From contig OY759599.1 of NCBI GenBank assembly GCA_963662465.1, positions 5,632,001 to 5,696,000 of the forward strand: DNA of 64,000 nucleotides, read 5' to 3'. The position numbers and the translations under genes were made by a program. Each line of letters starts with the position of its first letter. The first letter of the stretch is position 1. Origin of the DNA: Desulfatiglandales bacterium. GTDB lineage: Bacteria > Desulfobacterota > DSM-4660 > Desulfatiglandales > Desulfatiglandaceae. The notes under the pieces are model-generated. The model was not told the origin of the DNA. It worked only from the letters and a program-made list of their open reading frames with translations, and searched no databases. Below are positions 5,590 through 38,400 of this stretch, one piece after another.

Positions 5590-6699
5590 TTAAGTTTGGA
5601 AACAGGCGCCATATCGTCCTGTGAGAAATCGATTTCGAATATTCAATGAGCCGACATAGTCAGCCTGTTCTGAAAAACCACATTTCAGACATTTGAAATT
5701 CTCTCCATTTCGATTTTCCCGCCGAGTGTGATTGCAAACCGGACACATTTGACTCGTTTTCCAGGGATTTACACTTCTAAAAGCAACACGGTTATTTTCA
5801 GTGTGTTTTTGGATAATTCCCAAAAGTTCCCTGTAGTTCCAGTTACTCAGCGTCTTTCTGAACTCTTTTGATCTGCCGTTGGCAGATTTTTTTAAATGAT
5901 GTAATTTTTCAACAATAACCAGTCTCAAATCCTTATGGTTAAAATATTCTTTCACAACCTGATTCATGCAGTACTTCAAAGTTTTTTTGGCTCTGATGTA
6001 TGCTTTTGATCCCTGTCTCTTGCATTTTATATGGGTAATCAAAGACTTGATATCACTACCCAGGAATTCTTTATCGGAAGTGGCAACAAGATGATTGATA
6101 CCCACGTCCATTCCAATAACGGCGCCGGACTCTTTTTTGGATTTCACCTCTTTTTCAAATGAAAATTGGATGTATGTTCGAGTGATTACAATGGATGATG
6201 ATAATTTCCAGGAATCGAATTGATTGTAATGCCTATGTTTTTTTACAGGGATTGAGATTTTGATTTTGTTGCCGATTGAAGAAAGGATAATCCAGACATC
6301 AAAAGAATTTCTCCCCTGTTTTATCGACACAATTTGAGAGGAAAGTATCATTCTGCGGGCATTGTGGCGTGGTTGCACTTTTTCATTGAATACGGTATCG
6401 TCTTCCAGTATCCGCTCAACTTCCAGCTCCAGATTGCTTTTGTTCCTGTGCTGATCATTGGATTTGCACATGGACAATGCTTCCCGTGCCGCACACTGCT
6501 TCATTCTCGCGGACAACCATGTAAACGGCAGGTTATATCCATCTTTCGTGAGGTCTTTTTTGTTGAAATCATTCAACCAGAAAATATCTATGAAAAAATT
6601 GACGCCTCGTGAATATTCTTCCATCACTTCAACAAGTTGTCTTTTTTTATTTGCGGTCAAAAACTTCAAACTGCATTTACTCGACCTTTTTATCTTCAT
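5590..6699 (-). CDS. tnpB: TnpB RNA-guided endonuclease of an IS607-family element
   Basis: RuvC-I GMDVGI, RuvC-II VIVEKL, Zn finger CPVC...CLKC, RuvC-III QADYVGSLNI; AT-rich relative to flanks. Confidence 0.9.
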   Translation of the reverse strand: MKIKRSSKCSLKFLTANKKRQLVEVMEEYSRGVNFFIDIFWLNDFNKKDLTKDGYNLPFTWLSARMKQCAAREALSMCKSNDQHRNKSNLELEVERILEDDTVFNEKVQPRHNARRMILSSQIVSIKQGRNSFDVWIILSSIGNKIKISIPVKKHRHYNQFDSWKLSSSIVITRTYIQFSFEKEVKSKKESGAVIGMDVGINHLVATSDKEFLGSDIKSLITHIKCKRQGSKAYIRAKKTLKYCMNQVVKEYFNHKDLRLVIVEKLHHLKKSANGRSKEFRKTLSNWNYRELLGIIQKHTENNRVAFRSVNPWKTSQMCPVCNHTRRENRNGENFKCLKCGFSEQADYVGSLNIRNRFLTGRYGACFQT

Positions 6700-11881: not shown

Positions 11882-12109
11882 TTTTAGGCTCCTCCTTAGA
11901 AAATAGGCGAATGCTCCCACAAGCGCTTAAATTTACCCATCGGCTGCCAATTCGCCTTCTGTTATTATTCTTTTTCCTTTATATAACATTTGTTTCATTT
12001 TATACTGAAAAAAGTAAATGATGGATCTTCAAATTTGGTTTTTTTGATGAACAAAGAAGCCCGAAGATAATTGCTCATCTCCGGGTTTCATAGACCGGAG
12101 GATATGCGT

Positions 12110-13423
12110 ATGAACAAAAGAAGAGGGAGAAACACCATAAGGGTTCTTGCACTGCTTTTTGCCTTTTCCTTTATGTTTTTCAGCCAGGCCGTTGCCGCTG
12201 AAAAAGCAGAGGATCTTCAGGTAAAAGGGCAGGTGAAAGCGGTTACAAACAAAGCCAAGACCGTATCTGTGAATGTCAAGGACAAAGGGGTCATGCTGTT
12301 TAAGTTTAACGACAGCACAAAGTTTATCAACTTTACCAAAACCAAGGAAATCAAATATCCCACGGCAGTGGTGGTTAAATATAAGGTTGAGGGGCCGAAC
12401 AATGTGGCCCTCTCCATCAAAAAGGCACTGATTTCTCTCCCCAATGGCGTGACGGAAATCAAGACCGACGACGTGGCCGCGCTGGTTGAAAAAGGGCCGG
12501 AAGCCGAGAACTACTTTCTGGTGGATGCCAGGCCGGCCACCGTCGCCTCCGCCGGACATATTCCCACGGCGGTTTCCATCCCCATTAATCTGCTGGAGAA
12601 AAAGGGCGCTGAGCTGCTGCCCCCGGACAAAAACAAGCTGCTCATTTTCTATTGCGGCGGCCCCACATGAGGCATGAGTCCTAAATCCGCCGGTCTGGCG
12701 AAAAAATGGGGCTACGAAAATGTCAAAGTGTATGTGCAGGGCATTCCCAACTGGAAAAAAACAGGACACCATACCGTTTCCACCGCTGACTACGTGAGAA
12801 CGGCCAACATCGTTTTAATCGACCTGAGGGCGCCCGCTGCCGTCACCGCAGGCCATATCCCCCGGGCCGTCAGCATCCCCGCCGGCAAGCTTGACGCAGC
12901 CAAAGATCAATTTCCAGAGTCCCTCACCGCACCCATTGTTTTTTATTCCGACAACATGGCGGAATCCATAAAGGCCGTGGAAACCGCTCGTGGATGGCGG
13001 TATAAGAATGTCACCCTGTTGGATTTCCCGGGCATTATTTCATGGAAAGAAAAGGGATACGATGTCAAGACGGGTCCCGCCGCCGAGGAAATCGTTTATG
13101 TGAGGAAGCTGGAACCCGGACAGATCAGCATTGCCAATTTTGAAGCGGCGTTAAAAACCCAGGCCATTACGGTCATTGATGTTCGTGGCCCCGCGGAGTA
13201 TGCCGCGGGACACTTCCCCGGCGCCATGAATATTTCCCTTGATGAACTGCCCACAAAGATAGGCGAAATCCCCCGGGATAAGTTTGTCATCGTCCATTGC
13301 AAGACCGGCGTCCGCGGGGAAATGGCCTATCTGCTCCTCAAGGAGAAGGGGTATGACGTGAAATATCTCAAGGCCGGTTGCCGGTGCAAATCGGATGGTA
13401 CCTATATGATCTGGGAAATGTAG
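12110..13423 (+). CDS. Exported triple-rhodanese selenoprotein (in-frame UGA at 12668-12670 read as Sec)
   Basis: ORFs 12071-12670 and 12674-13423 share a frame, giving FYCGGPT-UGA-GMSPKSA; SECIS-like hairpin follows; signal peptide; rhodanese motifs DARP..GHIP, DLR..GHIP, DVR..GHFPGA, VHCKTGVRG. Confidence 0.88.
12677..12712 (+). promoter_or_regulatory. Bacterial SECIS element
   Basis: AGTCCTAAATC-CGCC-GGTCT-GGCG-AAAAAAT-GGGGCT: upper stem CGCC/GGCG with a G-first loop about 20 nt after the UGA; lower stem AGTCC/GGGCT. Confidence 0.75.
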
Positions 13424-13447
13424 CCCAACGAATCCAACCTTGATTTT

Positions 13448-13479
13448 CCCCGCCGCCTTTAAGGGACGGGGTTTTTTTT
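13448..13479 (+). terminator. Rho-independent terminator
   Basis: CCCCGCC...GGGACGGGG stem followed by a T8 run after the rhodanese stop. Confidence 0.65.
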
Positions 13480-13558
13480 GAGCGGTTTCCGGTTCCCATG
13501 CCGGTGCGTGGGAACCGGACGAACGGCCCATCAGCATCACCATCTGAACTTTTTTGCC

Positions 13559-13587
13559 TTGACGGTTTAATTTGTAATAATTATAAA
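13559..13587 (+). promoter_or_regulatory. Sigma70-type promoter for the YeeE gene
   Basis: TTGACG-N17-TATAAA. Confidence 0.5.
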
Positions 13588-13637
13588 CCCATAGAACTCA
13601 ATCAGGACAAAGACCTTAACACTCTTGGAGGATTGCC

Positions 13638-14825
13638 ATGACTGAAGAAAAGGAAGAAAGCGTGATGGGGGGCATTCTGAAACGTTCCTACGCCATCGTA
13701 TTTTACGAAAACTGGCCCATCCGGCTGGGGGGCATCCTCATCGGCATCATGAGCGTGCTGACCTTTGCCTGGGCCAGGCCATGGGGCGTTGTGGGAGGCC
13801 TTAGAAACTGGGCGGACTGGGTTTTTCATCAAGTGGGGCTCTACGACAAGGCCCCCGTTTCTCCGCTTATTTCCACCAACTCGATCCTGACCCTGGGGCT
13901 CCTCTGGGGGGCCTTCGGTGCGGCGCTCCTGTCCAAGCAGTTCGCCATTCGCAAGGCCCCCGGTCGTGAATTGATCAAAGGGGTGGTGGGCGGCTGCTTC
14001 ATGGGCGTCGGTTCCGCCATGGCCGGCGGCTGCAACGTGGGCGGTTTCTATATCGCCAGCAGCGCCCTCTCCTTTGCGGGGCTTGCCATGCTGGTGGGCT
14101 TGATTGCCGGCGCTTACCTGGGGCTGCGATACCTTTACTGGGAAATGATGCACCTGCCCTCGTCACCGCCCAAAGGCGGCGGCGCCAAAAAAGTCAACCT
14201 CCTGTTCCTGGAACCCTATATCGGCGCCGTGGTTTTCCTGGGCGCCCTGGCAGCCACATGGTTCTATGCCCGGGAAGCCTATACACGGGTGGGAGGGCTG
14301 CTGTTGTGCGGCATCGCCTTCGGCATCATCATTCAGCGAACCCGGTTCTGTTTTGTCCGTTGCTTCCGAGATCCTTTCATGACCGGGGAAGGGGACATGG
14401 TCAAGGCCGTCGCCTTCAGCATAATCATCGGCGTCTTAGGCTTCGCGGCCCTCAAATGGACCGGCCTCAGGCCGGAAAATGCCTATGTAACCCCCACCTT
14501 CTGGTTCGGGAGTCTTGTGGGGGGCGTCATCTTCGGCTTCGGCATGCTCATCTCGGGCGGCTGTGGGTCCGGAAGCGTATGGCGAGCCGGAGAGGGACAC
14601 GTCAAACTCATGGTGGTAGTGATCTTTTTTGCAGCCACCAACTCCCTGTTCAAGACTTTGATCAATTCGTCGTCGGGTTTCAAGGCCCTCTTGGGAAAAC
14701 GGGCCTTCATGCCGGATGTCATGGGATACAAATGGGCGGTAATTGCCCTAATTGTCATTTTCCTGCTCTACGCCCTGATTGCCCAGTGGAATGAGGAAAC
14801 AGATAAATTCACCGTTGAAATGTGA
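13638..14825 (+). CDS. YeeE/YedE (TsuA-like) thiosulfate/sulfur/selenium transporter
   Basis: Multi-TM; AMAGGCNVG, QRTRFCFV, ISGGCGSG conserved Cys motifs. Confidence 0.9.
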   Translation: MTEEKEESVMGGILKRSYAIVFYENWPIRLGGILIGIMSVLTFAWARPWGVVGGLRNWADWVFHQVGLYDKAPVSPLISTNSILTLGLLWGAFGAALLSKQFAIRKAPGRELIKGVVGGCFMGVGSAMAGGCNVGGFYIASSALSFAGLAMLVGLIAGAYLGLRYLYWEMMHLPSSPPKGGGAKKVNLLFLEPYIGAVVFLGALAATWFYAREAYTRVGGLLLCGIAFGIIIQRTRFCFVRCFRDPFMTGEGDMVKAVAFSIIIGVLGFAALKWTGLRPENAYVTPTFWFGSLVGGVIFGFGMLISGGCGSGSVWRAGEGHVKLMVVVIFFAATNSLFKTLINSSSGFKALLGKRAFMPDVMGYKWAVIALIVIFLLYALIAQWNEETDKFTVEM

Positions 14826-14898
14826 TGCTGGTTTTTCCTTTTCCTTACCCTTTTTTTTTGATATTCTTGTGAGAATAAAACTTTTTTGGAGGGTCACA

Positions 14899-15753
14899 GT
14901 GGTCAATACATGGAAATTTTGCAAAAAAGCAACCGTCTCCTTTTTAATAGCCTTTGTTTTAGCCCTCATTTCACCCATGGCAACGTTGGCCCTTGAAAAA
15001 AAACTGACCAATTCCCTGGGTATGGAATTTGTTCTGATTCCGACCGGAACATTCACCATGGGCAGCCCGCTGAATGAACCCGGACGAGATCGAGATGAAG
15101 TGATGCATACCGCCGAAATTAGCCGGCCTTTTTATTTGCAGACCACCGAAGTGACGGTCAAGCAATGGCGTGATATCATGGGAAGATCCTTTTTTGGCCG
15201 CAAAAGAGGATCTGACAATATGCCCGTGGTGAGGATTTCCTGGCAGGACTGCATTAAATTCATCAAAAAACTGAATGCCCGCAACGACGGCATCTACCGA
15301 CTTCCCACCGAGGCGGAATGGGAATACGCGTGCAGGACCGGCAATCATACGGCCTACAGCACAGGCGACAACATCAGTTGCGACCGTGCCATGTATGCCA
15401 ACAACACCCTGAAAAGTGCGGATTGCGTGAAGGTCGTGGAATCAAAAGGACTGCCGCCGGATGAGCCGGCCCCGGTAAAAAGCTATGCGCCCAACGCCCT
15501 GGGGCTCTACGACATGCACGGAAATGTCTGGGAATGGTGCGAGGACTGGTATCATCCCTACAAAACAGATGTTGCCGTAAAGCCCCAAGCCCAGGGTGAA
15601 ACCCCATCCATTGAAACTGGAACCGATAAAGTGCGAAGGGGGGGAAGCTGGTACGGAACCGATACTAGGTGCCGCTGCGCCAATCGGAATTTCAGTCATT
15701 TTGCCAACCGATATCAAACCACGGGGTTTCGGCTGGTGCGAGAAGTAAAATAA
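14899..15753 (+). CDS. Exported FGE-sulfatase (SUMF1-like) domain protein
   Basis: TNSLGMEFVLIPTGTFTMGS, TTEVTVKQW, YRLPTEAEWEYAC, GLYDMHGNVWEWC, RGGSW, GFRLV; probable GTG start with signal peptide. Confidence 0.88.
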   Translation: MVNTWKFCKKATVSFLIAFVLALISPMATLALEKKLTNSLGMEFVLIPTGTFTMGSPLNEPGRDRDEVMHTAEISRPFYLQTTEVTVKQWRDIMGRSFFGRKRGSDNMPVVRISWQDCIKFIKKLNARNDGIYRLPTEAEWEYACRTGNHTAYSTGDNISCDRAMYANNTLKSADCVKVVESKGLPPDEPAPVKSYAPNALGLYDMHGNVWEWCEDWYHPYKTDVAVKPQAQGETPSIETGTDKVRRGGSWYGTDTRCRCANRNFSHFANRYQTTGFRLVREVK

Positions 15754-21349: not shown

Positions 21350-22204
21350 CTAAGAATTCGCTGACATTCGGCCCATGAAATAGGCGGCAACCAGGGTTCC
21401 CAAAACGGTGACCAGGGAGTAGGCAAATACCGCCGCGGGCGCTACGGTTCCCGCAAAATTGGCGGATGCCGCCACCAGGGCTGCCGGAGCATTGCGCACT
21501 GTGGTATTTAAAGCCAGAGCCTTTTTTTCCCCCTTATGGGGTCCTCCCATGAACCAGCCTATGACCAGACAGGTTGTAAAAAGGACAACACTGCCAACCG
21601 CGGCCCGCCAACCGAACAGCGCAAGGGTGTGGTAATGGGTCAGTATAATCAGGGAACAAGCCCCCAGAACCAACAAATTGTTCAGAACACGAAGGGGTCC
21701 GGCGATTTTCCGGCTGACAGCGGGCTGCCAATGGTTCAGCGCCAGCCCGGCTGAAAGGGGCAGGAGTTGACCCAGGGCCACGACCTTCATGATTTTCAGA
21801 TAATTTACATTAAGGAGCTCTCCTTCCGTAAATCCTGCCATCAGTAGCTTGAGCACAGCTGGAGAAATTACGGTGGAAAGGGCGGCCAGGAGGATCATGA
21901 GGCCGATGGATAGGGGAACATCGCCCTTGGCCAGGGCCGTGAAAGGAGGCCCCATGGGGGCCCCTGAAAAAACCACTCCTATCAGGAAACCCGCAGCCAC
22001 CAAGGGATCCGGCCTGAACAGGAGAAGAAGGCCAAAGGCCGCAAATGGCGCCAGCAGGAAATTCGTGACCAACCCCTTCCAAACGATTGCCCTTTTTTTT
22101 AGGGAATCCGTCAACTGGGTCGTGGTCACGGACGAGCCCATATGAAACATGAGGCATAAAAGCCAGATAAACGTAACCGTATCGGTAACCTGGTTCAACA
22201 TCAT
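21350..22204 (-). CDS. Bile acid:sodium symporter (BASS) family transporter
   Basis: GLVTNFLLAP, GAPMGPPFTALAKGD, TVRNAPAAL; about 9 TM. Confidence 0.88.
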   Translation of the reverse strand: MMLNQVTDTVTFIWLLCLMFHMGSSVTTTQLTDSLKKRAIVWKGLVTNFLLAPFAAFGLLLLFRPDPLVAAGFLIGVVFSGAPMGPPFTALAKGDVPLSIGLMILLAALSTVISPAVLKLLMAGFTEGELLNVNYLKIMKVVALGQLLPLSAGLALNHWQPAVSRKIAGPLRVLNNLLVLGACSLIILTHYHTLALFGWRAAVGSVVLFTTCLVIGWFMGGPHKGEKKALALNTTVRNAPAALVAASANFAGTVAPAAVFAYSLVTVLGTLVAAYFMGRMSANS

Positions 22205-22218
22205 TCAAGCTGCTCCGG

Positions 22219-23175
22219 TTATGCCTGTTCCAGCCTGTCCACTGCCTTCTTGATTTTCAGAACGGTCACATCCGCCAGTTTCCGGAGGCTTTCCACCTCT
22301 TCAGCGGAATAGGCGTAAAACCCCTTGCCCGTCTTCATGCCCAAGTCTCCTTTTGCCACCATGTCTTCCAGGATTTTGGGTGGTTTGAATCCGTCTTCCC
22401 CGGTTTTATCATGAACATATCTAAAAAGGTTCAAAGAGGTGTCCAAACCCGCATAATCGGCCATTCGAATGGGGCCGATGGTGCAGAGACGCAGGGCAAA
22501 GCCATTCTGAATCACGGTGTCCACATCTTCCGCCGAACAGACGCCCTTTTCCACCAGGGTCAAGGCCGCCCGGAACATGGCGGCCTGAATATAGTTGTGA
22601 ATAAAAGCGGGGTGTTCTTTTAAAACCACGGTTCGTTTCCCGATGCCATCCAAAAGACTTAATGCCAGTTCAACCGTTTTCGGGGAAGTCTTCCTGCCGG
22701 GGACCACCTCCACCACCGGCATGAGGTGAGCCGGAATAAACCAGTGGGTCACAATGGCCCTTTCAGGGTATTTCATCTCGGAAGCAATTTCGTCAATGCT
22801 CATGGAACTGGTGTTGGACGCCACGACGGTTTCTTTGCCGCAAAGCTCGCCGCACCGCTTGAACACATCCCGCTTGATATTCAGATTTTCAGGTACCGAT
22901 TCGGTCACATAATGGGCACTGCCCATGACCTCCTCCCAGTCCAGGGTGAAATGGATGCGGGATACGGCTACATCCGCTTTTCCCTGGTCCAGTACGCCCT
23001 GTTCCACCATGAGGCGGATATTGGACTCAAGCCGCTTTCGAGCATTTGCAAGGCTTGCCTGCTGCGTATCCAGCGCCTTTATCTCATACCCACTGCCCGC
23101 AAATGCCAGGGCAATATCCGGCCCCATAATACCCATACCCACCACTGCTACTCGTTTAATGTCTTCAACCTGCAT
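22219..23175 (-). CDS. 3-hydroxyacyl-CoA dehydrogenase family protein
   Basis: GMGIMG Rossmann, ESVPENL, ASNTSS, HWFIP..VVEVV, D..GLD, G.LG.KTGKGFY. Confidence 0.9.
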   Translation of the reverse strand: MQVEDIKRVAVVGMGIMGPDIALAFAGSGYEIKALDTQQASLANARKRLESNIRLMVEQGVLDQGKADVAVSRIHFTLDWEEVMGSAHYVTESVPENLNIKRDVFKRCGELCGKETVVASNTSSMSIDEIASEMKYPERAIVTHWFIPAHLMPVVEVVPGRKTSPKTVELALSLLDGIGKRTVVLKEHPAFIHNYIQAAMFRAALTLVEKGVCSAEDVDTVIQNGFALRLCTIGPIRMADYAGLDTSLNLFRYVHDKTGEDGFKPPKILEDMVAKGDLGMKTGKGFYAYSAEEVESLRKLADVTVLKIKKAVDRLEQA

Positions 23176-23190
23176 GGCGATTCTCCTCCT

Positions 23191-24129
23191 CTATTTTCCC
23201 TTGTCCCGCTTCTCAAAAGCACGATTCACAATTCCCTGAAGTCTTTCCATGGTTTCTTTTGTCGGCGGCTTGAAATCCCTCAACTGATAAATTCTCCCCA
23301 GAAAACCGTACTTGGTTTCCCCCAACCGGTGGTAGGGCAACAGCTCATAACTGATCACATTTTCATGGGGAAGGATAAATGCCAGCACGGCCCGCACATG
23401 ACTTTCGCTATCGTTTATGCCCGGCATAATGGGACTGCGCGCCAGGAAACGCTTATCTTTAAACGTGCTATAGGCCCTTTCCAGATTCGCGAGGATCCGA
23501 CTATTGTCCACCCCCGTCCATTTTTGGTGCCGGACGGGATCCATGAGTTTAAGGTCGTGAAAGATGGTGTCCACATGGGGCAGGACCATTTCCATGGCCT
23601 TCCAGGGCACATTGCTTGCAGTCTCAATGGCGGTACTGAGCCCCCGGACACGGGCTTCCTGAAGGAGGGCCGCCGAAAACCGGGGCTGACACAAACAATC
23701 CCCGCCGCTTAGCGATAGACCCCCGCCGCTTTCCCGGTAGAAGGCATTGTCCTGTTCCACCTCCTCCAACACCTGTTCCACCGTCATCTCTTTCCCGAAT
23801 CGATAGAGAGCCATGGAAGGGCAGACGTCCACGCAAAGACCGCAGTTGGTGCAAAGATCCCAATTGATTTTCATCCGGTCGCTGGGAGAAAGGGTAAAAA
23901 TAGCGGATTCGGGGCAGATCTCCCTGCAGGCGCCGCAGGCGTCTTCCCCGATGCATTTATGGGGGTTATAGGCCAGTTCCGATTTGGGATGGATGCTCTC
24001 GGGATTACAGCACCACTTGCAGCGAAGGGAACATCCTTTCAGAAAAACCGTGGTGCGAATACCAGGCCCATCATGAAGACTGAAATGCTGAATGTTTAAG
24101 ACCGTGCCCGTTTGCTGGTTCTTCGCCAT
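23191..24129 (-). CDS. Glycyl-radical enzyme activase (radical SAM with ferredoxin insert)
   Basis: HDGPGIRTTVFLKGCSLRCKWCCNPE; two ferredoxin-type Cys motifs (CIGEDACGACREICP, CTNCGLCVDVCP); ELLPYHRLG. Confidence 0.95.
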   Translation of the reverse strand: MAKNQQTGTVLNIQHFSLHDGPGIRTTVFLKGCSLRCKWCCNPESIHPKSELAYNPHKCIGEDACGACREICPESAIFTLSPSDRMKINWDLCTNCGLCVDVCPSMALYRFGKEMTVEQVLEEVEQDNAFYRESGGGLSLSGGDCLCQPRFSAALLQEARVRGLSTAIETASNVPWKAMEMVLPHVDTIFHDLKLMDPVRHQKWTGVDNSRILANLERAYSTFKDKRFLARSPIMPGINDSESHVRAVLAFILPHENVISYELLPYHRLGETKYGFLGRIYQLRDFKPPTKETMERLQGIVNRAFEKRDKGK

Positions 24130-24144
24130 GAAGCAAATCCCCCT

Positions 24145-25224
24145 TTATTGTGAATCCCCAAGGGATATGCCCAGGGCCCGTGCTACCTGAACCAATTCAC
24201 GGCCGTGGGGTTGCACAAAAATCAGGTCAGGGGGTTGAAAGGCCGTCATGACGCCGATTCGACCGTCCTTCAGGGCGCGGACAGCGGCGGCGCCGTAGCC
24301 CACACCCAGCTGACGGTCCACGGCCGTGGGGTTGCCGCCGCGAATCAGTTGACCCAAAACCAGGGGAAAGGTCTCCTGAGCCATCCGTCTCTGCAATTCA
24401 AGGGCCACGCTTTCAGCCACCAACCCTGACTGGTCCATCACATGACTGCCCTCGTTTAACAGTGGGTTTTCACCTTTTGCGGGAGAGGCCCCTTCCGCCA
24501 CGACCACCATGGCCACGGGCCATCCCCGCCGCAATTTTTCCTGGAGCCGTGTGGCCACGGACCCCAGGTGGTAAGGAATTTCCGGAATCAGGATAGCATC
24601 GGCGGGAAGCGCCATGCCCCCTTGCAGGGCCAGCCAGCCGGCGTGGGTTCCCAGCACCTCCACCACGGCGATTCGACCCAGCGTTTCCGCCGCGGTTCGA
24701 GCCCGGTCGAGGGTTTCCACCACATAGGCAAGGGCACTGTTAAACCCGAAGGACAGGGTGGTTCCCGCCACATCATTTTCCACCGCCTTAGGCACACACA
24801 CCAGGGGAAGCCCTTTCCGAGCCAGTTTCCAGACCATACCCAGTTCTTTAAGCCCCAGCACGGAAATGATGCCGTCAATGCCTGCTGCTTCTACGTTTTG
24901 AAGCAGGGTATCGCTCAGATCTTTTTCCACGATCTGGTTGTCCGGGTCCACCACCTGGACCCGAAAGGGGTCGATGGGGTGCGTTGTGCTCAGAATACCC
25001 CTCGAAAGGACGGCAGGGTTCTCAATTTTCAGGGGGGAGAGAGAAACCATGCCCCCCTCTTCATATCGGTCCGGAAAAAGCAATCCGTCAAAGCCGTCGC
25101 GGATGCCCACCACCTCCCAGCCCAGTTCAAAGGCGGCCCGAACCACGCCCGTAAATACCGCGTTCAGGCCCGGTACATACCCTTCCCCCACATTCACCGC
25201 AATCCGCTTTATTTTCGAACCCAT
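24145..25224 (-). CDS. PfkA-fold protein with divergent active-site motifs
   Basis: PGLNAV, GIRDGFDGL, PKAVEND, EVLGTHAGWLAL, LIPEIPY, VVVAEGA, IRGG. Confidence 0.8.
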   Translation of the reverse strand: MGSKIKRIAVNVGEGYVPGLNAVFTGVVRAAFELGWEVVGIRDGFDGLLFPDRYEEGGMVSLSPLKIENPAVLSRGILSTTHPIDPFRVQVVDPDNQIVEKDLSDTLLQNVEAAGIDGIISVLGLKELGMVWKLARKGLPLVCVPKAVENDVAGTTLSFGFNSALAYVVETLDRARTAAETLGRIAVVEVLGTHAGWLALQGGMALPADAILIPEIPYHLGSVATRLQEKLRRGWPVAMVVVAEGASPAKGENPLLNEGSHVMDQSGLVAESVALELQRRMAQETFPLVLGQLIRGGNPTAVDRQLGVGYGAAAVRALKDGRIGVMTAFQPPDLIFVQPHGRELVQVARALGISLGDSQ

Positions 25225-25260: not shown

Positions 25261-27756
25261 CTACATATCATATTCAGTGCGAGCAATGATCTCATTCTGA
25301 GTGGCCGGATCCAGCTCCGAAAAAAAGGCCGAGTATCCTGCGACCCGAACGATGAGGTTTCGGTATTTTTCCGGATCTTTCTGGGCCGCCCGCATGGTCT
25401 CGGCGGAAATGCAGTTCATCTGAATATGCCAGATCTTGAGATTATACCACCCCCGGATGAGGGAAACCAGTTTTTGAGTGCCCGCATGCCCCTGCAGGGG
25501 ACCGGGAGAAAGCTTGATATTTAAGAGAGGCGAACACCAGTGTTTGGAATCGTGTGGAACAAATTTGCTCACGGAGTTAAGGAGCGCCGTAGGCCCCATG
25601 GTGTCATATCCCTGTTGAGGACCTGCCCCCTCGGACAGGGGTTCTCCGGCCCTGCGTCCGTTGGGCGTGGCGCCGGTGGCCTGCCCCAGAACAATGTGGG
25701 TGGTGACGGGAAGCACCCGGAGTTCCCAGTTGCGGCCCACCACGTTGTTGGGATTATCGAGCTTTCCGATCTCGTCCACCATGAACCGGTTGATCCGGAC
25801 CATCATGAGGTCGGCCTCAGCATCGTTGTTTCCCCATTTGGGGGCGCTGATGCAGAACTGGCGAATCTTTTCCTTTCCTTCCCAGTTTTTCTCGACAGCC
25901 TCCAGAAGTTCGGCCATGGTGAACCGTTTTTCATCAAAGACCCGTCTTTTGATGGCCACCAGGGAATCGCACAGGGTGCCCGAACCGATCATGTCGATGT
26001 TGACCAGGGACACAAGGTCTTTGTTCGTAAATCCCACGCCGCTTCGCATGGCATCCTTCATTTCCCGCATGAACGGCTCATTGACGATGCTGCTGAGAGG
26101 CGACGCGATGTAGCGGGAGCGATAGCCTTCATAAAGAATATTACGATCAAAGACCATTTTCAGATGATAGCGCATCTGCCGGGCCCAGGCCTCCCAGACC
26201 GCTTCAAAGGTTTCGAATTGTTGAGGGTCTCCCGTCCTGAGCCCAACGGTTAGGTCCCCGAGCCTTCGAATTCTACCGTCATTGAGGGCCATCTCCAGGG
26301 ATGCAACCTGGTTATTGTAAGTACTGCCACAGTTGTACACTTCACTTCGAATCTGCCGGCATTCCATACATCCGTTCACGGTCCAGTCGTTGGCCAGGTG
26401 CAGTGGAACGCCCTTGGCCAGATACATGGGTATCACCACCTCGTCGTTAAGCAGCTTGGGATAACCCTGGCCCTCTTTGATGGTTTCGGCAATATCGTAG
26501 AAAAGCCTGTCCGGAGTGTTGGAGTGGATCCTGACCGCCAGATCGGGCATGGTCAGGGCCACGCCGCTTTTGGATTTCAGAAAAAGGTAGGTCAGTTCAT
26601 TGCTGGCATCGCGACCGTCGGTTGTCTGGCCTCCGAGGGTCACACACTCAAAATGCGCGAAACCGGACGTGGACCCCGCGATATGCCCCGCCAGGGGCAT
26701 GAAGATGTATTGGTACATCTTGAGGTTGAGCATGCGGATCAGATCCAAGGCCTCCTCGTCCGTAATGCGGCCCTCCTCCCGGTCTTTTTTGTAATAGGGG
26801 TACAGGTACTGGTCCATGCGCCCGTTGCCCACATTGCCGCCGATATTGAGCTCGATCCGGGTCCAGACCTGCAACCACCACTGACATTGAAGGGCCTCTC
26901 GAAAGGTACGGGCCGGATGCTCGGGTACTTGTCGGCAGATGGCGGCGATTTCCGTCCACTTGGCGATCACTTCAGGGTTTTCGGCCTTCTGAGCCAAAGC
27001 CTCGGCCTTGTGGGCGTATCGGTTTGCCCATGTGACAACCGCCTCACAGGTGAGCAGGCCGGCCTCGATGAAATCATTTTTTTCCGAACATCGGGGGTCC
27101 GTGGGCATGAGGGACGCGCGCATTCCCTCCAGTTCCTTTCGAATGCCCGCAAAGCCTTTCTTGAGAACACGCTCGTAGTCCAGGGTCCAGTTCTGGCTGG
27201 ACCTGCCGGTGCCGGTTTCCACATAAACGCCGGTGGGCTTTCCGTCTTTTGTCCATCCAAAATCATAGGCGGCGGGGGCGTTTGCCCGCAGCAGGCTCAT
27301 GAAGTTCACATCCAGGGCATGTTCCCGCCAATAGGGGATGATGTCCGATTCCATGACCGGCCAGTCGGAAGGGTCAATAAACGGTTCGGATGGAGCGGGG
27401 TCGTCCTTGACCATTCTTTTGAGCGATGCGTATCCTCCGCCATCGCACTCGGCAAAGGGGACCACGTAGCGACCCACCCATGGGGCAGGGGAACCCACAA
27501 TCTCCTCATCGGGATCGATGAAGACGGGAATGCGCTCCGCGAAGGCTTTGAGGAATTTGGCGTGGCGCAGGTTAATGGGCTGCCCTTCCGTTTCCCGGTA
27601 CACATCGGTCAGGATTTTTGTCCGTTCCACCAGCAGACGTATGGGCAGACTTCGAATGCGCTCCAGCAGTCGATCAAATCCCGGACTGGTCCTGACCCAG
27701 GTGGATTTTCCCTGTGCAATGGCTTTTTCCTGGGCGGTGAGTTCCCCAGTATCCAT
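25261..27756 (-). CDS. Glycyl radical enzyme, IslA/HpsG-related clade, substrate unknown
   Basis: GRMDQYLYPYY, Cys loop NGCMECR, Gly loop LIVRVAGYSAFF; RSSQNW and YPKLLNDE motifs of the sulfonate-lyase clade. Confidence 0.92.
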   Translation of the reverse strand: MDTGELTAQEKAIAQGKSTWVRTSPGFDRLLERIRSLPIRLLVERTKILTDVYRETEGQPINLRHAKFLKAFAERIPVFIDPDEEIVGSPAPWVGRYVVPFAECDGGGYASLKRMVKDDPAPSEPFIDPSDWPVMESDIIPYWREHALDVNFMSLLRANAPAAYDFGWTKDGKPTGVYVETGTGRSSQNWTLDYERVLKKGFAGIRKELEGMRASLMPTDPRCSEKNDFIEAGLLTCEAVVTWANRYAHKAEALAQKAENPEVIAKWTEIAAICRQVPEHPARTFREALQCQWWLQVWTRIELNIGGNVGNGRMDQYLYPYYKKDREEGRITDEEALDLIRMLNLKMYQYIFMPLAGHIAGSTSGFAHFECVTLGGQTTDGRDASNELTYLFLKSKSGVALTMPDLAVRIHSNTPDRLFYDIAETIKEGQGYPKLLNDEVVIPMYLAKGVPLHLANDWTVNGCMECRQIRSEVYNCGSTYNNQVASLEMALNDGRIRRLGDLTVGLRTGDPQQFETFEAVWEAWARQMRYHLKMVFDRNILYEGYRSRYIASPLSSIVNEPFMREMKDAMRSGVGFTNKDLVSLVNIDMIGSGTLCDSLVAIKRRVFDEKRFTMAELLEAVEKNWEGKEKIRQFCISAPKWGNNDAEADLMMVRINRFMVDEIGKLDNPNNVVGRNWELRVLPVTTHIVLGQATGATPNGRRAGEPLSEGAGPQQGYDTMGPTALLNSVSKFVPHDSKHWCSPLLNIKLSPGPLQGHAGTQKLVSLIRGWYNLKIWHIQMNCISAETMRAAQKDPEKYRNLIVRVAGYSAFFSELDPATQNEIIARTEYDM

Positions 27757-27806: not shown

Positions 27807-28733
27807 CTATCCCTTTAGAAAATCAGGATTCGCAAACTCCGGGTCGGGATAAGTGTAAAAGCCTTTTCCAGTCTTGACCCCCAATTCTCCCTTATCAACC
27901 ATGGCCTTGAGGGCATCGGGCGGACGATCCCTTTCCTCCCCGGATTCCAGGTAGTAGCTCATCTCCACATTGTAGGTTACATCCAGGCCGTTAATATCCA
28001 TCTGACCAAAGGGTCCGACAGGCAATCCGTAAGCCACCATCCAGGCCCGGTCGATGTCCCGGAAATCCACAAACCCGTCAGCCCACATATACAGAACCTG
28101 TCGTTTAACGGACCGCCACACACGGTTAAAGCAGAAACCGTAAATCTCCTTTCTGACCGTAAGGGGAATGCAGCCGATGGCGGAAATCCATTGCTTTCCC
28201 GCTTCCAGGGTTTCGGGGCTCGTTTGACTACCCCCCATGATGTCCACCATGTTGATGCCCGTTACCGGCGTATAGAAATGCAGATTCAGGCATTTTTCGG
28301 GTCGTTTTGTGGCATCCTCGATCCTTGAAATGGGAATGGTGGAGCTGTTGCTGGCCAGGATGGCCCTGGAAGGGGCCAGGGCATCCATCTCTTTGAATAC
28401 CTTCCGCTTGAGTTCCAGATTTTCGGGCACCGCCTCGATGACCAGATCGGCATCCTTCAGGGCATCGGCCATGACGGAGGCGGTTTGTACTTTTGAAATA
28501 GCGCCGTTCCACTGTTCAATAGGGACCACAGGCCCTTTCTTGCGGGCGGTCATGATGCCTTCAAACTGCGCGACCGAGCGCTCAAAGGCCCCTTTCGTGT
28601 TGTCATAGACCGTGGCCTTGAAGTCAAAACAGGCGGCCTGAACGGCAATCTGGGCACCCAGAATGCCTGCGCCGATGATGGTTACCTGCAAGATTTGCAT
28701 GGTTTCAGGATAATTGAAAGTTTTTTCGTTCAT
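27807..28733 (-). CDS. 3-hydroxyacyl-CoA dehydrogenase family protein (second paralog)
   Basis: GAGILG, IEAVPENLELK, ASNSST, LHFY, GELGVKTGKGFY. Confidence 0.88.
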   Translation of the reverse strand: MNEKTFNYPETMQILQVTIIGAGILGAQIAVQAACFDFKATVYDNTKGAFERSVAQFEGIMTARKKGPVVPIEQWNGAISKVQTASVMADALKDADLVIEAVPENLELKRKVFKEMDALAPSRAILASNSSTIPISRIEDATKRPEKCLNLHFYTPVTGINMVDIMGGSQTSPETLEAGKQWISAIGCIPLTVRKEIYGFCFNRVWRSVKRQVLYMWADGFVDFRDIDRAWMVAYGLPVGPFGQMDINGLDVTYNVEMSYYLESGEERDRPPDALKAMVDKGELGVKTGKGFYTYPDPEFANPDFLKG

Positions 28734-28842
28734 TCTTTTCCCTCCTTATTTTTTGAGACCAAATCTGCGTATCACGCAAATCCTCGTTGAGCCCAATTCT
28801 TTACCATTGACCATTTATCGGGATTTTGATATTTTTTCCAGC

Positions 28843-29079
28843 ATGAAACCAATCCGATACGATTGCCATGCTAGAAAGTGGATGAAAGACCGCCATGTTC
28901 ATGATGACGAAGTCAGGGTTGCCATTGAAAACCCCGACTTCATGGAGCAAAGCGTAAAAGGACGTATCAATGCCTTCAAATTCCTTAATAAAAGATATTT
29001 GAGAGTCACTTTTAAGAAGGAATTGGACCACGTATTGGTGATCACGGTAACCATAAGGAAAAAACCTTTCAAGGAGTAA
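28843..29079 (+). CDS. DUF4258-type putative toxin
   Basis: IRYDCHARKWMKDR...AIENPD...LRVTF...LVITV; paired with a DUF2283 gene. Confidence 0.7.
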   Translation: MKPIRYDCHARKWMKDRHVHDDEVRVAIENPDFMEQSVKGRINAFKFLNKRYLRVTFKKELDHVLVITVTIRKKPFKE

Positions 29080-29083
29080 CTCG

Positions 29084-29302
29084 ATGAAAATCGAATACAG
29101 CAAAGGGATTGATGCCTTATATATTCGGCTTAGAGAAGTCCGTATTTCCGACTCCATGGACATAGAAGAAGGCGTAACAGTTGACCTGGATGAAAAAGGC
29201 CATATCGTCGGCATCGAAATCCTGGACGCAAGTGAAAAAATGGCTATCTCTGATCTTTTCAACATCCATATCGAAAACTTCCCACTTGAAAAGGTAGCCT
29301 GA
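29084..29302 (+). CDS. DUF2283-type putative antitoxin
   Basis: MKIEYSKGIDALYIRL...VDLDEKGHIVGIEILDAS. Confidence 0.85.
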   Translation: MKIEYSKGIDALYIRLREVRISDSMDIEEGVTVDLDEKGHIVGIEILDASEKMAISDLFNIHIENFPLEKVA

Positions 29303-29348
29303 TCCATTTTCTTGTCCCACCCGCCTGGCATAGCCTGTCACTTCAATC

Positions 29349-35507: not shown

Positions 35508-36815
35508 TCATTTCGTCATCATATTCGGCAGCAAAAGCGCCAGATCCGGAAAAACGGTAACAAGAATCACCACCGCGAATATAGCCAGCAGAAACGGGGC
35601 CACACCGCGAAAAATGGTCTCCACCGGTACACCCTTGGCAACACCCGCCACCGTAAAGATATTCAGGCCCATGGGAGGGGTGATTAGTCCCGCCTCCATC
35701 ATCAACACCGCGATCACACCAAACCAGATGGGGTTGAACCCCAATGCCAGAATCACCGGATAAATGACCGGCATGGTCAAAACCATCATGCTGATGGCGT
35801 CCAGAAAACAGCCTAGAAACATGTACATAAGAATAACAACGGTGTGAATCACATAGGGGGAAACATCCAGGGTTCCGGCCCATTCGGCCACCTGCATGGG
35901 AATGGTGGACAGCGCCAGAAAATAACTGAACACATTGGCCCCGGCCACGAGAAACAGCACCATAATGGAAATGTGTACCGATTCCTGAAGGGCGTTGGTG
36001 AGATTTTTCCAGGTCAGTTTCTTTTTGAAAAGGGCGATCAACAACAGCACCGTAGCCCCGATGGCGCCTGCTTCCGTGGGTGTAAAGAAGCCTCCGTAGA
36101 TCCCTCCCATGACCAGCAAAAAGACCGCCAGGGGTTCCCATACCTTCAGAAGGGCGGCAAATTTAACGCGCCGGGAAACGGATTCAAGGTTCGCCGGCGC
36201 CAGGGCCGGATTGATCTTCACCATGAAGACCACGATCCCCACATAGGCCAGCGCCAGGGTCAAACCGGGGAAAATGCCTGCCACCAGCAGCTTCCCAATG
36301 GACTGCTCGGTCAGCATGCCGTACACGATGAACCCGATGCTCGGTGGGATCAAAAACCCCAGCGTGCCCCCTGCGGCGATGCTGCCCGTGGCTAGTCGGG
36401 GATGGTATTTATATCGCTCCATTTCGGGCAGCGCCACGGTCCCCATGGTGGCCGCCGTGGCCACGGATGAACCGGAAACCGCTGCAAATCCGGCACAGGC
36501 CCCGATGGTAGCCACGGCAAGCCCTCCGGGCAACCGCCGCAACCATTTATCGAAGGTATTGTAGAGGTCCTTGGTCATACCCGAACTTGCCGCGAACCCC
36601 CCCATGACGATGAAGAGGGGAATCACCGTGTAGGGGAAATAGGCACTGACCTCGTAAACGGTTCGGGAGACCATTGGAAGCGCCGCTTCAATGCCGGACA
36701 GATAGGCAACCCCCGCAAAGCCCACGAACATTAAGGCATAGGCGATATGCATGCCGAGGAAAAGCAGCAGAAACACCAGGGCCGTGCCCATGATGCCGAT
36801 GGTCACAGGATCCAC
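35508..36815 (-). CDS. dctM: TRAP transporter large permease DctM
   Basis: FAAVSGSSVATAA, GTLGFLIPPS, FTPTEAGA, GLITPPMG. Confidence 0.95.
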   Translation of the reverse strand: MDPVTIGIMGTALVFLLLFLGMHIAYALMFVGFAGVAYLSGIEAALPMVSRTVYEVSAYFPYTVIPLFIVMGGFAASSGMTKDLYNTFDKWLRRLPGGLAVATIGACAGFAAVSGSSVATAATMGTVALPEMERYKYHPRLATGSIAAGGTLGFLIPPSIGFIVYGMLTEQSIGKLLVAGIFPGLTLALAYVGIVVFMVKINPALAPANLESVSRRVKFAALLKVWEPLAVFLLVMGGIYGGFFTPTEAGAIGATVLLLIALFKKKLTWKNLTNALQESVHISIMVLFLVAGANVFSYFLALSTIPMQVAEWAGTLDVSPYVIHTVVILMYMFLGCFLDAISMMVLTMPVIYPVILALGFNPIWFGVIAVLMMEAGLITPPMGLNIFTVAGVAKGVPVETIFRGVAPFLLAIFAVVILVTVFPDLALLLPNMMTK

Positions 36816-36817
36816 GG

Positions 36818-37291
36818 TTATCTCCTTACCAGTTTCCGGATAGCATCCACCAGGTCAAGCACCAGTTCCAGACAAAGAAAGACCCCGGCCACCGACACCA
36901 GCAGCCTGAAAGGGTATTGGGGCACTCGCAGCATATCCGAAACCGTGCGCTCTTCCATGCCCACCACCCAGCCCTGCCAGGCCATAACGGCGATAATGAA
37001 CAGACTCAGAAGGGTGGTCAAAATCTGAAGCGTCAGAGCCGCCTTTTCCGGAAGGCGAGACGTCAGCATGGTCACACGCACATGCCCCCCCACCTGGTGG
37101 GTGTAGGCAATTCCCAAAAGCATAAATATCGCCAGCATATAACTTGACAGTTCCATGGAACCGGGAATAGGCTTGGACCAGATGGCCCGACCCACAACCT
37201 CCCCGCTGGTCAGCAACATCATGGGGATCAGAAAAAACATGCCCACATAGTTTAAAGAAAAGGTAATACGTTGTATGATTTTCCGTATCAT
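36818..37291 (-). CDS. dctQ: TRAP transporter small permease DctQ
   Basis: 4 TM; EVVGR, ELS, GHVRV. Confidence 0.92.
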   Translation of the reverse strand: MIRKIIQRITFSLNYVGMFFLIPMMLLTSGEVVGRAIWSKPIPGSMELSSYMLAIFMLLGIAYTHQVGGHVRVTMLTSRLPEKAALTLQILTTLLSLFIIAVMAWQGWVVGMEERTVSDMLRVPQYPFRLLVSVAGVFLCLELVLDLVDAIRKLVRR

Positions 37292-37338
37292 CTTTTGCCG
37301 CTCCGTTTCGGTTGGGTGTAAGGTATCAGGTTAAAATG

Positions 37339-38400
37339 CTATTTTTTCCATTCCGGCGGCATGGCCACACAGGTTACCCCTGCATCCGTCGCGGCCTGGT
37401 CATACACGAGGACCGTCTTCTTGGCGGGAAGGCCCTTTTGTTCCAGATCCGCCACCCATTTTTTGGTGACATCCTGGAAACGGGCGAACCATTTCTTTTC
37501 CTGGTCCTGGGGCAGCTTGTAAAGCTTTATGCCCTTTGCCTCGATTTCCTTCATCATGGTCTTGTACACCGCCTGATTGAGACCGCCCGTGGTGCGAAAG
37601 GGATTGCCGCACACCTCTTCGATGATGACTTTAAGATCATCGGGGGTTTTTTCCCAAACTTTTTTGTTCATGATCACCCCTTCGGACACACAACCAAAGG
37701 TGGCTACCACGCCGTATTTGGCCACTTCATAGAGCTTGAAAGCTAAAACCAGGGGGGGGCAGGTTACCAGGCCGTCGATGGCGCCGGTTTCAAGGGAAAG
37801 GTACGCATCGCCCAGAGGCATGAACACCGGTTCCGCGCCCAGTGCCTTGATATACTGAGTCTGCAGACCGCCGGGGGCCCTGATTTTCATGCCTTTGAGG
37901 TCTGCAAGGGAATGGACCGGTTTTCGGGTCCACAAAAAGGCCTGGATGCAACCATTCAACTCTATGACTTTTACATCTTTAAACTCTTCTTCCAATGCGC
38001 CCTTGTACACCTTGTTGCCGATGTCAACGGCCACGTCTTTCCCATCCACCCAGGCCGCAAGGGACAAGACGTCGGTCAATGGAAACCTGCCCGGGGTCCA
38101 GGTGGCGGTAAAATACCCCATATCGGACATGCCGTTACGCACAATATCAAAATGTTCCGGGCCCTTACCGAGTGCGCCCCCCGCATAGAGAGTAGTCGTA
38201 ATACGGCCGTTGCTGCGCTTTTCCAGTTCCGCCAGCATGGGCTTCCACACCGTCTTCACTTCCCGGCTTGCGGGCGGATGCCATGTGGAGAATTTCAGGT
38301 GAATCTCACCATCCGAATCCGCCATTGCGATCGCGGGCAGAACCATGGCCAGGAAACCCACCAGCAGAAACCCCTCAAACAAACCTTTTCCTTTTTTCAT
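37339..38400 (-). CDS. dctP: TRAP substrate-binding protein DctP
   Basis: Signal peptide; DLKGMKIR, LGAEPV.MP..Y.SLETGAIDG. Confidence 0.92.
   Translation of the reverse strand: MKKGKGLFEGFLLVGFLAMVLPAIAMADSDGEIHLKFSTWHPPASREVKTVWKPMLAELEKRSNGRITTTLYAGGALGKGPEHFDIVRNGMSDMGYFTATWTPGRFPLTDVLSLAAWVDGKDVAVDIGNKVYKGALEEEFKDVKVIELNGCIQAFLWTRKPVHSLADLKGMKIRAPGGLQTQYIKALGAEPVFMPLGDAYLSLETGAIDGLVTCPPLVLAFKLYEVAKYGVVATFGCVSEGVIMNKKVWEKTPDDLKVIIEEVCGNPFRTTGGLNQAVYKTMMKEIEAKGIKLYKLPQDQEKKWFARFQDVTKKWVADLEQKGLPAKKTVLVYDQAATDAGVTCVAMPPEWKK

What the first reader, a model, noticed from the sequence alone, without database searches (positions are those of the whole stretch)
25261..27756. GRE keeps the two sulfonate-binding Arg positions but has a rebuilt pocket
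Seen: RSSQNW, GFAHFECV, NGCMECR, ELRVLPVTTH. From my recollection of Bilophila IslA (RSSIQW, GYAHWEAV, GCIEIR, DARYVPFTSH), the catalytic Cys and Glu and both anion-binding Arg residues are kept, while Gln becomes Asn, Trp becomes Phe and Phe becomes Val. The reference motifs are from memory and need an alignment. Inference: a lyase or dehydratase for a bulkier oxyanion substrate (sulfonate, sulfate, phosphate or phosphonate) than isethionate.
Basis: partly seen in the sequence, partly recalled or inferred. Interest (0 to 1): 0.75.

Follow-up and report, generated by a model that had tools for sequence, protein, structure and literature searches.

The report
Uncharacterised sulfonate-lyase-like glycyl radical enzyme
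This gene encodes an oxygen-sensitive radical enzyme related to those that cut sulfite off small sulfonates, but with a roomier, more polar pocket and its own set of partner genes for hydroxy-acid chemistry, so it probably acts on a larger substrate that has not been identified.

Summary
Observation confirmed. The 831-aa minus-strand glycyl radical enzyme (GRE) is closest to IseG, HpsG and IslA (38-41% identity).

This pocket is identical in 15 of 15 full-coverage members of a 16-cluster clade (66-90% identity) that fails IslA/HpsG membership tests. W→F and F→V say little; Q→N with T→G matters.

The clade travels with an activase, a kinase-dead PFK look-alike, 3-hydroxyacyl-CoA-dehydrogenase-like enzymes, aconitase X, a BASS transporter and sometimes a β-keto-acid cleavage enzyme. 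These suggest 3-hydroxy/3-oxo acid chemistry.

Best reading (0.45): a C-S lyase for a larger polar β-hydroxysulfonate, perhaps a sulfonated 3-hydroxy acid. Rivals: carboxylate-anchored dehydratase (0.2), sulfate/phosphate-ester lyase (0.15), plain isethionate/DHPS lyase (0.1), phosphonate migration (0.07). No substrate is shown. My paper searches found no description. The scan had already noted GRE plus dead-PFK operons on other DNA, one with aconitase X and BASS.

The parts
25261..27756 (-). Glycyl radical enzyme, 831 aa, IslA/HpsG branch, uncharacterised subfamily (P0001)
27187..27204 (-). RSSQNW, residues 185-190: R185 (=IslA R189), Q188 (=I192), N189 (=Q193)
26641..26664 (-). GFAHFECV, residues 365-372: F369 (=IslA W374)
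26356..26376 (-). NGCMECR, residues 461-467: thiyl C463 and base E465 (CXE motif)
25696..25725 (-). ELRVLPVTTH, residues 678-687: R680 (=IslA R678), L682 (=V680), V684 (=F682)
25330..25347 (-). RVAGYS glycyl-radical loop, G807
24145..25224 (-). PfkA-fold protein lacking kinase residues; directly before the activase in 8 of 8 clade loci that hold it. The window copy is 33 bases short near its 3' end, apparently an assembly error
23191..24129 (-). GRE activating enzyme (radical SAM CX3CX2C plus ferredoxin-like insert); TIGR02494 over cut-off, HpsH model NF048010 389 against cut-off 430
22219..23175 (-). 3-hydroxyacyl-CoA-dehydrogenase-like protein (HCDH2); best solved match is the non-CoA enzyme 4OM8; in 7 of 12 clade loci
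21350..22204 (-). BASS/SBF-family sodium symporter; in 5 of 12 clade loci
27807..28733 (-). Second 3-hydroxyacyl-CoA-dehydrogenase-like protein (HCDH1); best solved match is diketoreductase 4DYD; in 2 of 12 clade loci and in L086
29349..31136 (-). Fused aconitase X (swivel + AcnX); keeps the Ser base, Glu-Ser and Lys that bind a 3-hydroxy acid; below the cis-3-hydroxyproline dehydratase cut-off (223 against 700); in 5 of 12 clade loci

Best explanation
A glycyl-radical 1,2-eliminase of the C-S lyase branch that acts on a β-hydroxyalkanesulfonate larger and more polar than isethionate or DHPS. The best guess is a sulfonated 3-hydroxy carboxylic acid of four or more carbons, such as 3-hydroxy-4-sulfobutanoate or a sulfo-aldonate. 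Mechanism, inferred by homology to IslA: the activase puts a radical on G807; it passes to C463; the thiyl radical takes H from the carbinol carbon; E465 deprotonates the OH; the ketyl radical expels sulfite held by R185, R680 and N189; the product radical takes H back, giving a ketone (a 3-oxo acid if the substrate is a 3-hydroxy acid). The partner enzymes would then make or use the hydroxy and oxo acids: aconitase X as (de)hydratase, NAD(P) dehydrogenases, and a β-keto-acid cleavage enzyme in some loci. Sulfate reducers could respire the sulfite. Shown: fold, catalytic residues, pocket residues, clade and gene context. Inferred: bond cleaved, substrate, order of steps, role of the dead PFK.
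For: The closest solved enzymes by sequence and fold are the three C-S lyases. R189, Q193 and R678 anchor the sulfonate in all three (review section), and Arg678 reaches in from a β8 position too distant to touch substrate in CutC or HypD. Both Arg are kept in 15 of 15 full-coverage clade members, although some related lineages lost one. Arg plus Asn is a common way to bind sulfonates. Nominal pocket volume gain is about 158 Å3 over IslA against 51 Å3 for HpsG, and the new residues are amides (Q188, N189, N586). The neighbours point to 3-hydroxy/3-oxo acids: AcnX residues, dehydrogenases nearest to non-CoA enzymes, and BKACE in L035 and L086. BKACE plus a dehydrogenase handle a free 3-hydroxy acid in deoxyribonate catabolism. 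The host has dsrA over cut-off, as do 2 of 3 related genomes tested. Relative G129 carries two matches to this GRE and, separately, an IslA-signature enzyme with phosphotransacetylase, which argues for a different job.
Against: Q193A kills IslA, and Q193 was called the distinguishing residue for the sulfite leaving group; Asn is untested there. No extra Arg or Lys for a second anion was seen at the pocket positions examined. The cassette holds no sulfur-specific gene that is conserved; YeeE/rhodanese genes lie near it in the window and in L086 but are only 26% alike. The alphaproteobacterial MAG with the cassette gave no dsrA and no AcnX match (completeness unknown). G000 has no BKACE orthologue (best 31-33%). 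I know of no natural 3-hydroxy-4-sulfobutanoate (own knowledge). PMC8473560 itself warns that GRE pockets are hard to predict from sequence.
Confidence: 0.45

Rival explanations
1. The two Arg hold a carboxylate, not a sulfonate. The enzyme is a radical dehydratase of a 2,3-dihydroxy acid (aldonate, tartrate-like or dihydroxybutyrate type) that gives a 3-oxo acid for the dehydrogenases and BKACE.
For: Every recognisable partner enzyme and both transporter types (BASS, TRAP) are carboxylate-type. The Arg189 position binds substrate through water in HypD. The cassette occurs in a genome where dsrA was not found. A C1 carboxylate sits on C2 just as the sulfonate does in isethionate (inference).
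Against: Loss of water needs an acid. The β1 site is His in HypD and Asp in CutC, and His164 protonates the leaving OH in glycerol dehydratase; here it is Asn. Among the characterised GREs in the papers read, the β8 Arg is described only for C-S lyases.
Confidence: 0.2
2. A lyase for a sulfate or phosphate monoester of a vicinal diol: the leaving oxyanion is one atom longer than sulfite, and Q→N and T→G make room for it.
For: The shortened residues flank the oxyanion site. Radical loss of a β-phosphate or sulfate is chemically easy (own knowledge). One known AcnX acts on a phosphorylated 3-hydroxy acid. The dead PFK keeps Arg/Lys at two sugar-phosphate positions in 106 of 107 rows each.
Against: No GRE of this bond type is listed in the review sections read or turned up. 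The PFK-like protein cannot plausibly phosphorylate. The phosphate-binding segment of archaeal AcnX is not conserved in this AcnX. No kinase or sulfatase is conserved in the cassette.
Confidence: 0.15
3. An ordinary isethionate or DHPS sulfo-lyase whose substitutions are tolerated drift.
For: The catalytic four and both Arg are intact. W374F, F682A and I192A variants of IslA remain active. It is the only GRE found in G000.
Against: Identity is 38-41%, against thresholds of about 60-62% for the IslA/IseG cluster. It scores 812-849 bits against a cut-off of 1000 in 12 of 12 clade members tested. Seven positions differ together and are fixed in the clade. There are no acetaldehyde or hydroxyacetone-processing or microcompartment genes, and a separate IslA-type locus exists in G129.
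Confidence: 0.1
4. A migration-type enzyme, for example cleaving the C-P bond of a 2-hydroxyalkylphosphonate by 1,2-shift and release of phosphite.
For: Dawson et al. argue that IslA should bind hydroxyethylphosphonate but that Gln193 and Thr312 sterically block migration. Exactly these two are cut back here to Asn189 and Gly307, with Gly in 16 of 16 clade rows.
Against: No phosphonate or phosphite genes lie in any of 12 clade loci. There is no residue like the migration-assisting Glu287 of ethanolamine ammonia-lyase that I could identify. Gly at the T312 position also occurs in clades that keep other pocket types. No GRE precedent was found.
Confidence: 0.07

Closest known systems
IseG (PDB 5YMR; PMC6453916) and IslA (PDB 7KQ3; PMC8473560, PMC6386719), isethionate sulfite-lyases
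   Same: Fold (TM 0.92-0.93), Gly loop, CXE motif, both anion-binding Arg; 41% and 38% identity.
   Different: I192Q, Q193N, T312G, W374F, Y587N, V680L, F682V; a 4-residue insertion before β7; far below the 60-62% cluster threshold; partner genes are AcnX, HCDH-like enzymes, dead PFK and BASS, not acetaldehyde-processing or microcompartment genes.
HpsG, DHPS sulfo-lyase (PDB 6LON; known to me through PMC13450708 and PMC8473560 only)
   Same: Same catalytic residues and Arg pair; a β-branched aliphatic residue (Ile in HpsG, Val here) replaces IslA Phe682, and a small residue replaces Thr312 (Ala in HpsG, Gly here); 40% identity.
   Different: HpsG keeps Gln and Trp; NF048011 score 818.7 against cut-off 1000; nominal pocket about 108 Å3 roomier than HpsG at four positions.
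HypD, CutC, glycerol and propanediol dehydratases, HpfG (other GRE 1,2-eliminases)
   Same: CXE motif; Phe at the W374 position in CutC and HypD; Arg at the β1 position in HypD.
   Different: About 29-30% identity and much weaker scores; they have His or Asp at the β1 site where this enzyme has Asn; β8 Arg not described for them.
Uncharacterised 'R-x-x-Q-N' GRE clades (P0026, P0055, P0093, P0107, P0111, P0242; loci L079-L081)
   Same: Asn, Phe or His, Gly or Ser and both Arg at the same pocket positions; sister group in the tree (SH-aLRT 97); dead PFK plus activase next to them, with SDR, AcnX or BASS in some.
   Different: Only 40-43% identical; different β6-β7 residues; equally unstudied.

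Membership tests
Glycyl radical enzyme superfamily (PFL-like) | PFL-like barrel with C-terminal glycyl loop and active-site Cys | tested here: met
   PF02901 480 bits and PF01228 91 bits; C463 and G807; model matches solved GREs
Glycyl radical enzyme superfamily (PFL-like) | Dedicated radical SAM activase encoded nearby | tested here: met
   23191-24129, TIGR02494 330.5 against cut-off 174.35
GRE 1,2-eliminases | [quoted passage not shown] | tested here: met
   C463-M-E465; Cys and Glu invariant in 121 of 121 rows
GRE C-S lyases (IslA/IseG/HpsG) | Two sulfonate-binding Arg (IslA R189, R678) | tested here: met
   R185 and R680; both in 15 of 15 full-coverage clade rows
GRE C-S lyases (IslA/IseG/HpsG) | Sulfonate-binding Gln (IslA Q193, HpsG Q187) | tested here: not met
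   Asn189 in the window and in 15 of 15 clade rows
GRE C-S lyases (IslA/IseG/HpsG) | Release of sulfite from a 2-hydroxysulfonate | not testable with these tools
   needs an assay
IslA/IseG isethionate lyases | Clusters at about 60-62% identity with IslA/IseG | tested here: not met
   38-41%; thresholds from PMC6453916 and PMC6386719
IslA/IseG isethionate lyases | Trp374, Thr312, Val680, Phe682 | tested here: not met
   F369, G307, L682, V684
NCBIfam NF048011 (HpsG model; also passes IslA-signature proteins) | Score of at least 1000 bits | tested here: not met
   818.7; 0 of 12 clade members pass, 35 of 38 other homologues tested pass
PfkA 6-phosphofructokinase (neighbour gene) | GGD ATP loops, TIDND catalytic Asp, MGR motif | tested here: not met
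   Catalytic Asp is Glu in 107 of 107 rows; no Arg at the MGR position among the listed residues; GGD lost (canonical numbering recalled)
[quoted passage not shown] | NF051439 score of at least 700; pyrrolidine-binding Trp35/Asp203 | tested here: not met
   222.8 bits; Trp35 segment differs

The most novel reading that the evidence does not exclude
The enzyme breaks a bond type not yet known for glycyl radical enzymes: elimination of sulfate or phosphate from an ester, or C-P cleavage by 1,2-migration made possible by cutting back the two residues (Q193, T312) said to block migration in IslA. It would work in a pathway with aconitase X and a kinase-dead PFK-fold helper of the activase.
Probability: 0.2. 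Interest if true: 0.85.

Novelty: new variant of a known kind. Interest (0 to 1): 0.55.

Why it matters
Only two reactions of C-S-cleaving glycyl radical enzymes are described, on isethionate and DHPS (review section). This clade and its Asn-pocket sisters (33 of the 121 top homologue rows) show that the two-Arg branch has more chemistry. The conserved pocket and cassette give a short substrate list and a clean test. A hit would add an anaerobic route for a larger organosulfonate or other oxyanion in sediment sulfate reducers and soil bacteria, and would test whether Q193 and T312 really gate elimination against migration. It would also correct automatic annotation, which names such proteins 'formate C-acetyltransferase', '(2S)-3-sulfopropanediol dehydratase' or 'isethionate sulfite-lyase'.

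Tried and rejected
1) Idea that the Asn/Phe/Val pocket is ancestral and IslA's derived. The first tree (127 rows, 6 added from order-level loci) put the clade at the base but warned of long-branch joins. With 17 representatives of 50% clusters added (46 rows; quick tree, as the careful search did not finish) the clade nested with the other Asn clades. Rejected. Neither tree holds IslA, IseG or HpsG themselves; IslA-type rows were recognised by their pocket signature.
2) The PFK neighbour as a kinase that makes a phosphorylated substrate: catalytic residues are lost.
3) The 11-residue gap in the window's PFK-like protein as a biological feature: contigs of X1 and X4 have 45 letters where the window has 12, so it is most likely an assembly error.
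4) The 176-aa ORF at 28801-29331 as an operon gene: no family hit and no match in any locus; it overlaps two small plus-strand genes.
5) The window's TRAP genes (35508-38400) and the rhodanese/YeeE/SucCD genes as cassette members: not syntenic orthologues in the loci.
7) Expression: no RNA holder listed; no evidence either way.
8) Promoter/terminator scan: 18 promoter-like sites against 10.4±3.7 in shuffles and 23 terminator-like sites against 19.8±4.9; nothing usable.
9) The HpsG primary paper (Liu 2020 PNAS) was not held, so HpsG residues binding the C3-OH were not checked. Supplements of PMC8473560 (Fig. S3, S9) and PMC6386719 (Fig. S11, S15) were not opened and may bear on pocket conservation and substrate range.
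10) Paper searches with no description of this clade or cassette: GRE + aconitase X, 0 papers; GRE + phosphofructokinase + three more terms, 2 unrelated; judged from listings only.
Full report
OBSERVATION. The coordinates hold one intact minus-strand ORF of 831 aa, the only GRE that tblastn finds in the 8.16-Mb genome (one match also). The four motifs start at residues 185, 365, 461 and 678, and RVAGYS at 804. The best solved relatives by sequence are IseG 5YMR (651 bits), HpsG 6LON (647) and IslA 7KQ3 (624), then CutC (423). An AlphaFold2 model from a 121-row alignment (pLDDT 92.4, pTM 0.92) gives the same three first by Foldseek, at 38-41% identity and TM 0.92-0.93. Counting along that alignment: R189=R185, I192=Q188, Q193=N189, T312=G307, T313=N308, W374=F369, C468=C463, E470=E465, Y587=N586, R678=R680, V680=L682, F682=V684, G805=G807. 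A contig of run X1 (probably the source sample, so not independent) is identical over the gene, and a strain in another study (X4) covers it in two contigs with about 4% differences.

HOW MUCH EACH CHANGE MEANS. From PMC8473560 (passages and sections 12, 13, 15): R189, Q193 and R678 bind the sulfonate, and R189E, R678E, Q193A, E470Q and V680A are inactive. W374F, F682A and I192A stay active. Phe is the usual residue at the W374 position in other eliminases, and W374 lies about 6 Å from substrate. HypD also has Arg at the R189 position. Q193 and T312 are said to block migration. Arg plus Asn is a common sulfonate-binding mode. PMC6453916 (passages) names IseG Phe680, Ile190 and Thr310 (IslA F682, I192, T312 by the two-residue offset) as van der Waals contacts. 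HpsG has Leu, Gln, Ala, Trp and Ile at the I192, Q193, T312, W374 and F682 positions. So W→F is uninformative, F→V resembles HpsG, and the telling changes are Q193N, T312G, I192Q and Y587N. Summed residue volumes (recalled table) at I192/Q193/T312/F682 are 158 Å3 below IslA, against 51 Å3 for HpsG. This is bookkeeping, not a cavity measurement.

A DEFINED SUBFAMILY. The homologue search lists 15 clusters at 66-90% identity, then drops to 45% (120 best of 1849 shown, from 7999 candidates scored). A profile of these 16 sequences against 1.84 billion 50%-representatives finds one at 1716 bits and the next at 858. All 15 rows that cover the ten pocket positions read R-Q-N-G-F-C-E-R-L-V; the 16th is a fragment that agrees where present. 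None of 12 clade members reaches the NF048011 cut-off (812-849 against 1000), while 35 of 38 other homologues do. My first tree placed the clade at the base, with a long-branch warning. A second tree with 17 added representatives nests it (support 100) with six other Asn-type rows (SH-aLRT 97) in an 18-row Asn group (91) (quick search). The Asn pocket therefore looks derived, as 'rebuilt' implies. The clade is rare and patchy: 50 of 209 genomes of the order have some GRE at E≤1e-100, but only G000, G129 and G134 have this one. One alphaproteobacterial MAG and 8 metagenome contigs add to it.

GENE CONTEXT. In the window the minus strand runs AcnX, HCDH1, GRE, PFK-like, activase, HCDH2, BASS, with gaps of 14-50 bases from HCDH1 onward. 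In the 12 loci with a clade GRE: PFK-like 8, activase 8, HCDH2 7, AcnX 5, BASS 5, a shared SDR 4, HCDH1 2, BKACE 1. Many contigs end inside the cassette, and several loci are not independent (L001/L003 are one MAG; L036/L037 are near-identical). Gene order differs in L004 and L040, so this is more than recent synteny. L035 and L086 extend the unit upstream with BKACE, a TRAP system and a ferredoxin-domain protein, and L086 adds a sigma-54 activator; L086 ends before the GRE. G000 lacks a BKACE orthologue (31-33%). The AcnX keeps the Ser base, Glu-Ser and Lys that recognise the carboxyl and C3-OH in both solved AcnX types, but not their specificity residues (PMC8184944 passages). HCDH2 is closest to the non-CoA dehydrogenase 4OM8 (190 against 170 bits) and HCDH1 to diketoreductase; the Lys-rich stretch that I recall as CoA-binding is not kept in HCDH2. 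A dehydrogenase plus BKACE is how deoxyribonate, a free 3-hydroxy acid, is proposed to be degraded (10.1101/205583 passages). The PFK-like protein has Glu for the catalytic Asp in 107 of 107 rows and has lost the MGR Arg and the GGD motif, yet keeps Arg/Lys at two sugar-phosphate positions in 106 of 107. It lies directly before the activase in 8 of 8 clade loci. In the five other genomes fetched for its close homologues it again sits beside an activase and near a GRE, three of the Asn type and two of distant types. It is thus a general partner, not a clue to this substrate. The host has dsrA, as do the genomes of L001 and L002; that of L004 gave no dsrA or AcnX match (completeness not given). 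G129 also holds an IslA-signature GRE (1538 bits) next to phosphotransacetylase.

MECHANISM AND RIVALS. Shown: a complete GRE eliminase with its activase and an anion site of two Arg in a roomier, amide-rich pocket. Inferred from IslA: H abstraction at a carbinol carbon, Glu-assisted ketyl formation, loss of the neighbouring group, carbonyl product. I put 0.45 on sulfite loss from a larger polar β-hydroxysulfonate; about half of that goes to a sulfonated 3-hydroxy acid giving a 3-oxo acid, which would tie in AcnX, the dehydrogenases and BKACE. Rivals: a carboxylate-anchored dehydratase of a 2,3-dihydroxy acid (0.2; fits the neighbours but lacks the acid residue at β1); a sulfate or phosphate ester lyase (0.15); an ordinary isethionate/DHPS lyase (0.1); migration chemistry on a phosphonate (0.07; Q193 and T312 are both cut back, but no phosphonate genes lie nearby). 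Against my reading: Asn for the essential Gln is untested, no second cationic site was seen, no sulfur gene is conserved in the cassette, and one host may not respire sulfite.

KNOWN AND NEW. It works like IslA/HpsG but fails membership on Gln, Trp, identity and HMM score. The 2026 review (PMC13450708; outline and sections 26, 30, 33) lists only IslA/IseG and HpsG as C-S lyases and says whole clades remain untested. PMC6386719 (passages) reports that IslA turns over no other sulfonate tested. PMC11528403 (passages) has no mention of phosphofructokinase. Verdict: a real, well-defined, uncharacterised variant of a known enzyme kind with a testable substrate list; interest 0.55.

Noticed in passing
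window 24200-24213: The window has 12 bases where contigs of runs X1 and X4 have 45, shortening the PFK-like protein by 11 residues relative to all 16 relatives aligned; probably an assembly error in this genome.
   Followed up: yes
window 28714-29302 (+): Two small plus-strand genes inserted between AcnX and HCDH1: a weak DUF4258 hit (23.2 bits, cut-off 25) and a 72-aa protein that looks like DUF2283 (recalled, not scanned). A toxin-antitoxin-like pair absent from L035, L036 and L086.
   Followed up: partly
P0007-P0013, P0016: The soil-type half of the clade has Gln for His687 in 8 of 8 rows, and 6 of these 8 have a second Glu in the Cys loop (GCEE).
   Followed up: no
L002 9114-11446 (G134): The GRE here is truncated at its 5' end next to a transposase-like ORF, and the PFK-like and HCDH2 genes are broken: a decaying copy.
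   Followed up: partly
L004 5045-7764: A patatin, an acetoacetate-decarboxylase-like ORF (recalled; no family hit) and a 3-hydroxybutyrate-dehydrogenase-like SDR lie just upstream of the cassette. This fits an acetoacetate product but is a common cluster and may be chance.
   Followed up: partly
window 12071-15753 (+) and L086 356-1180: Rhodanese, YeeE/YedE sulfur-transport and FGE-sulfatase-domain genes lie near the cassette in the window, and a YeeE gene in G129, only 26% alike.
   Followed up: partly
L083 (G586): A distant GRE with two PFK-like genes flanking its activase; several appear frameshifted.
   Followed up: no
P0022, P0039, P0040, P0067, P0244, P0245, P0247, P0248: Other members of this branch have lost one or both Arg, so the branch holds further unknown pockets.
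   Followed up: no
window 53882-55600 (-): A LytB/IspH domain fused to a UbiA prenyltransferase domain, near HpnH, an MMPL transporter and glycosyltransferase-like ORFs of a hopanoid-type cluster.
   Followed up: no
window 5590-6699 (-): TnpB/Cas12f1-like protein in a lower-GC stretch.
   Followed up: no
NCBIfam NF048011: The model named '(2S)-3-sulfopropanediol dehydratase' passes IslA-signature proteins at 1540-1620 bits and several Asn-type clades at 1001-1155, so its name over-assigns function.
   Followed up: partly
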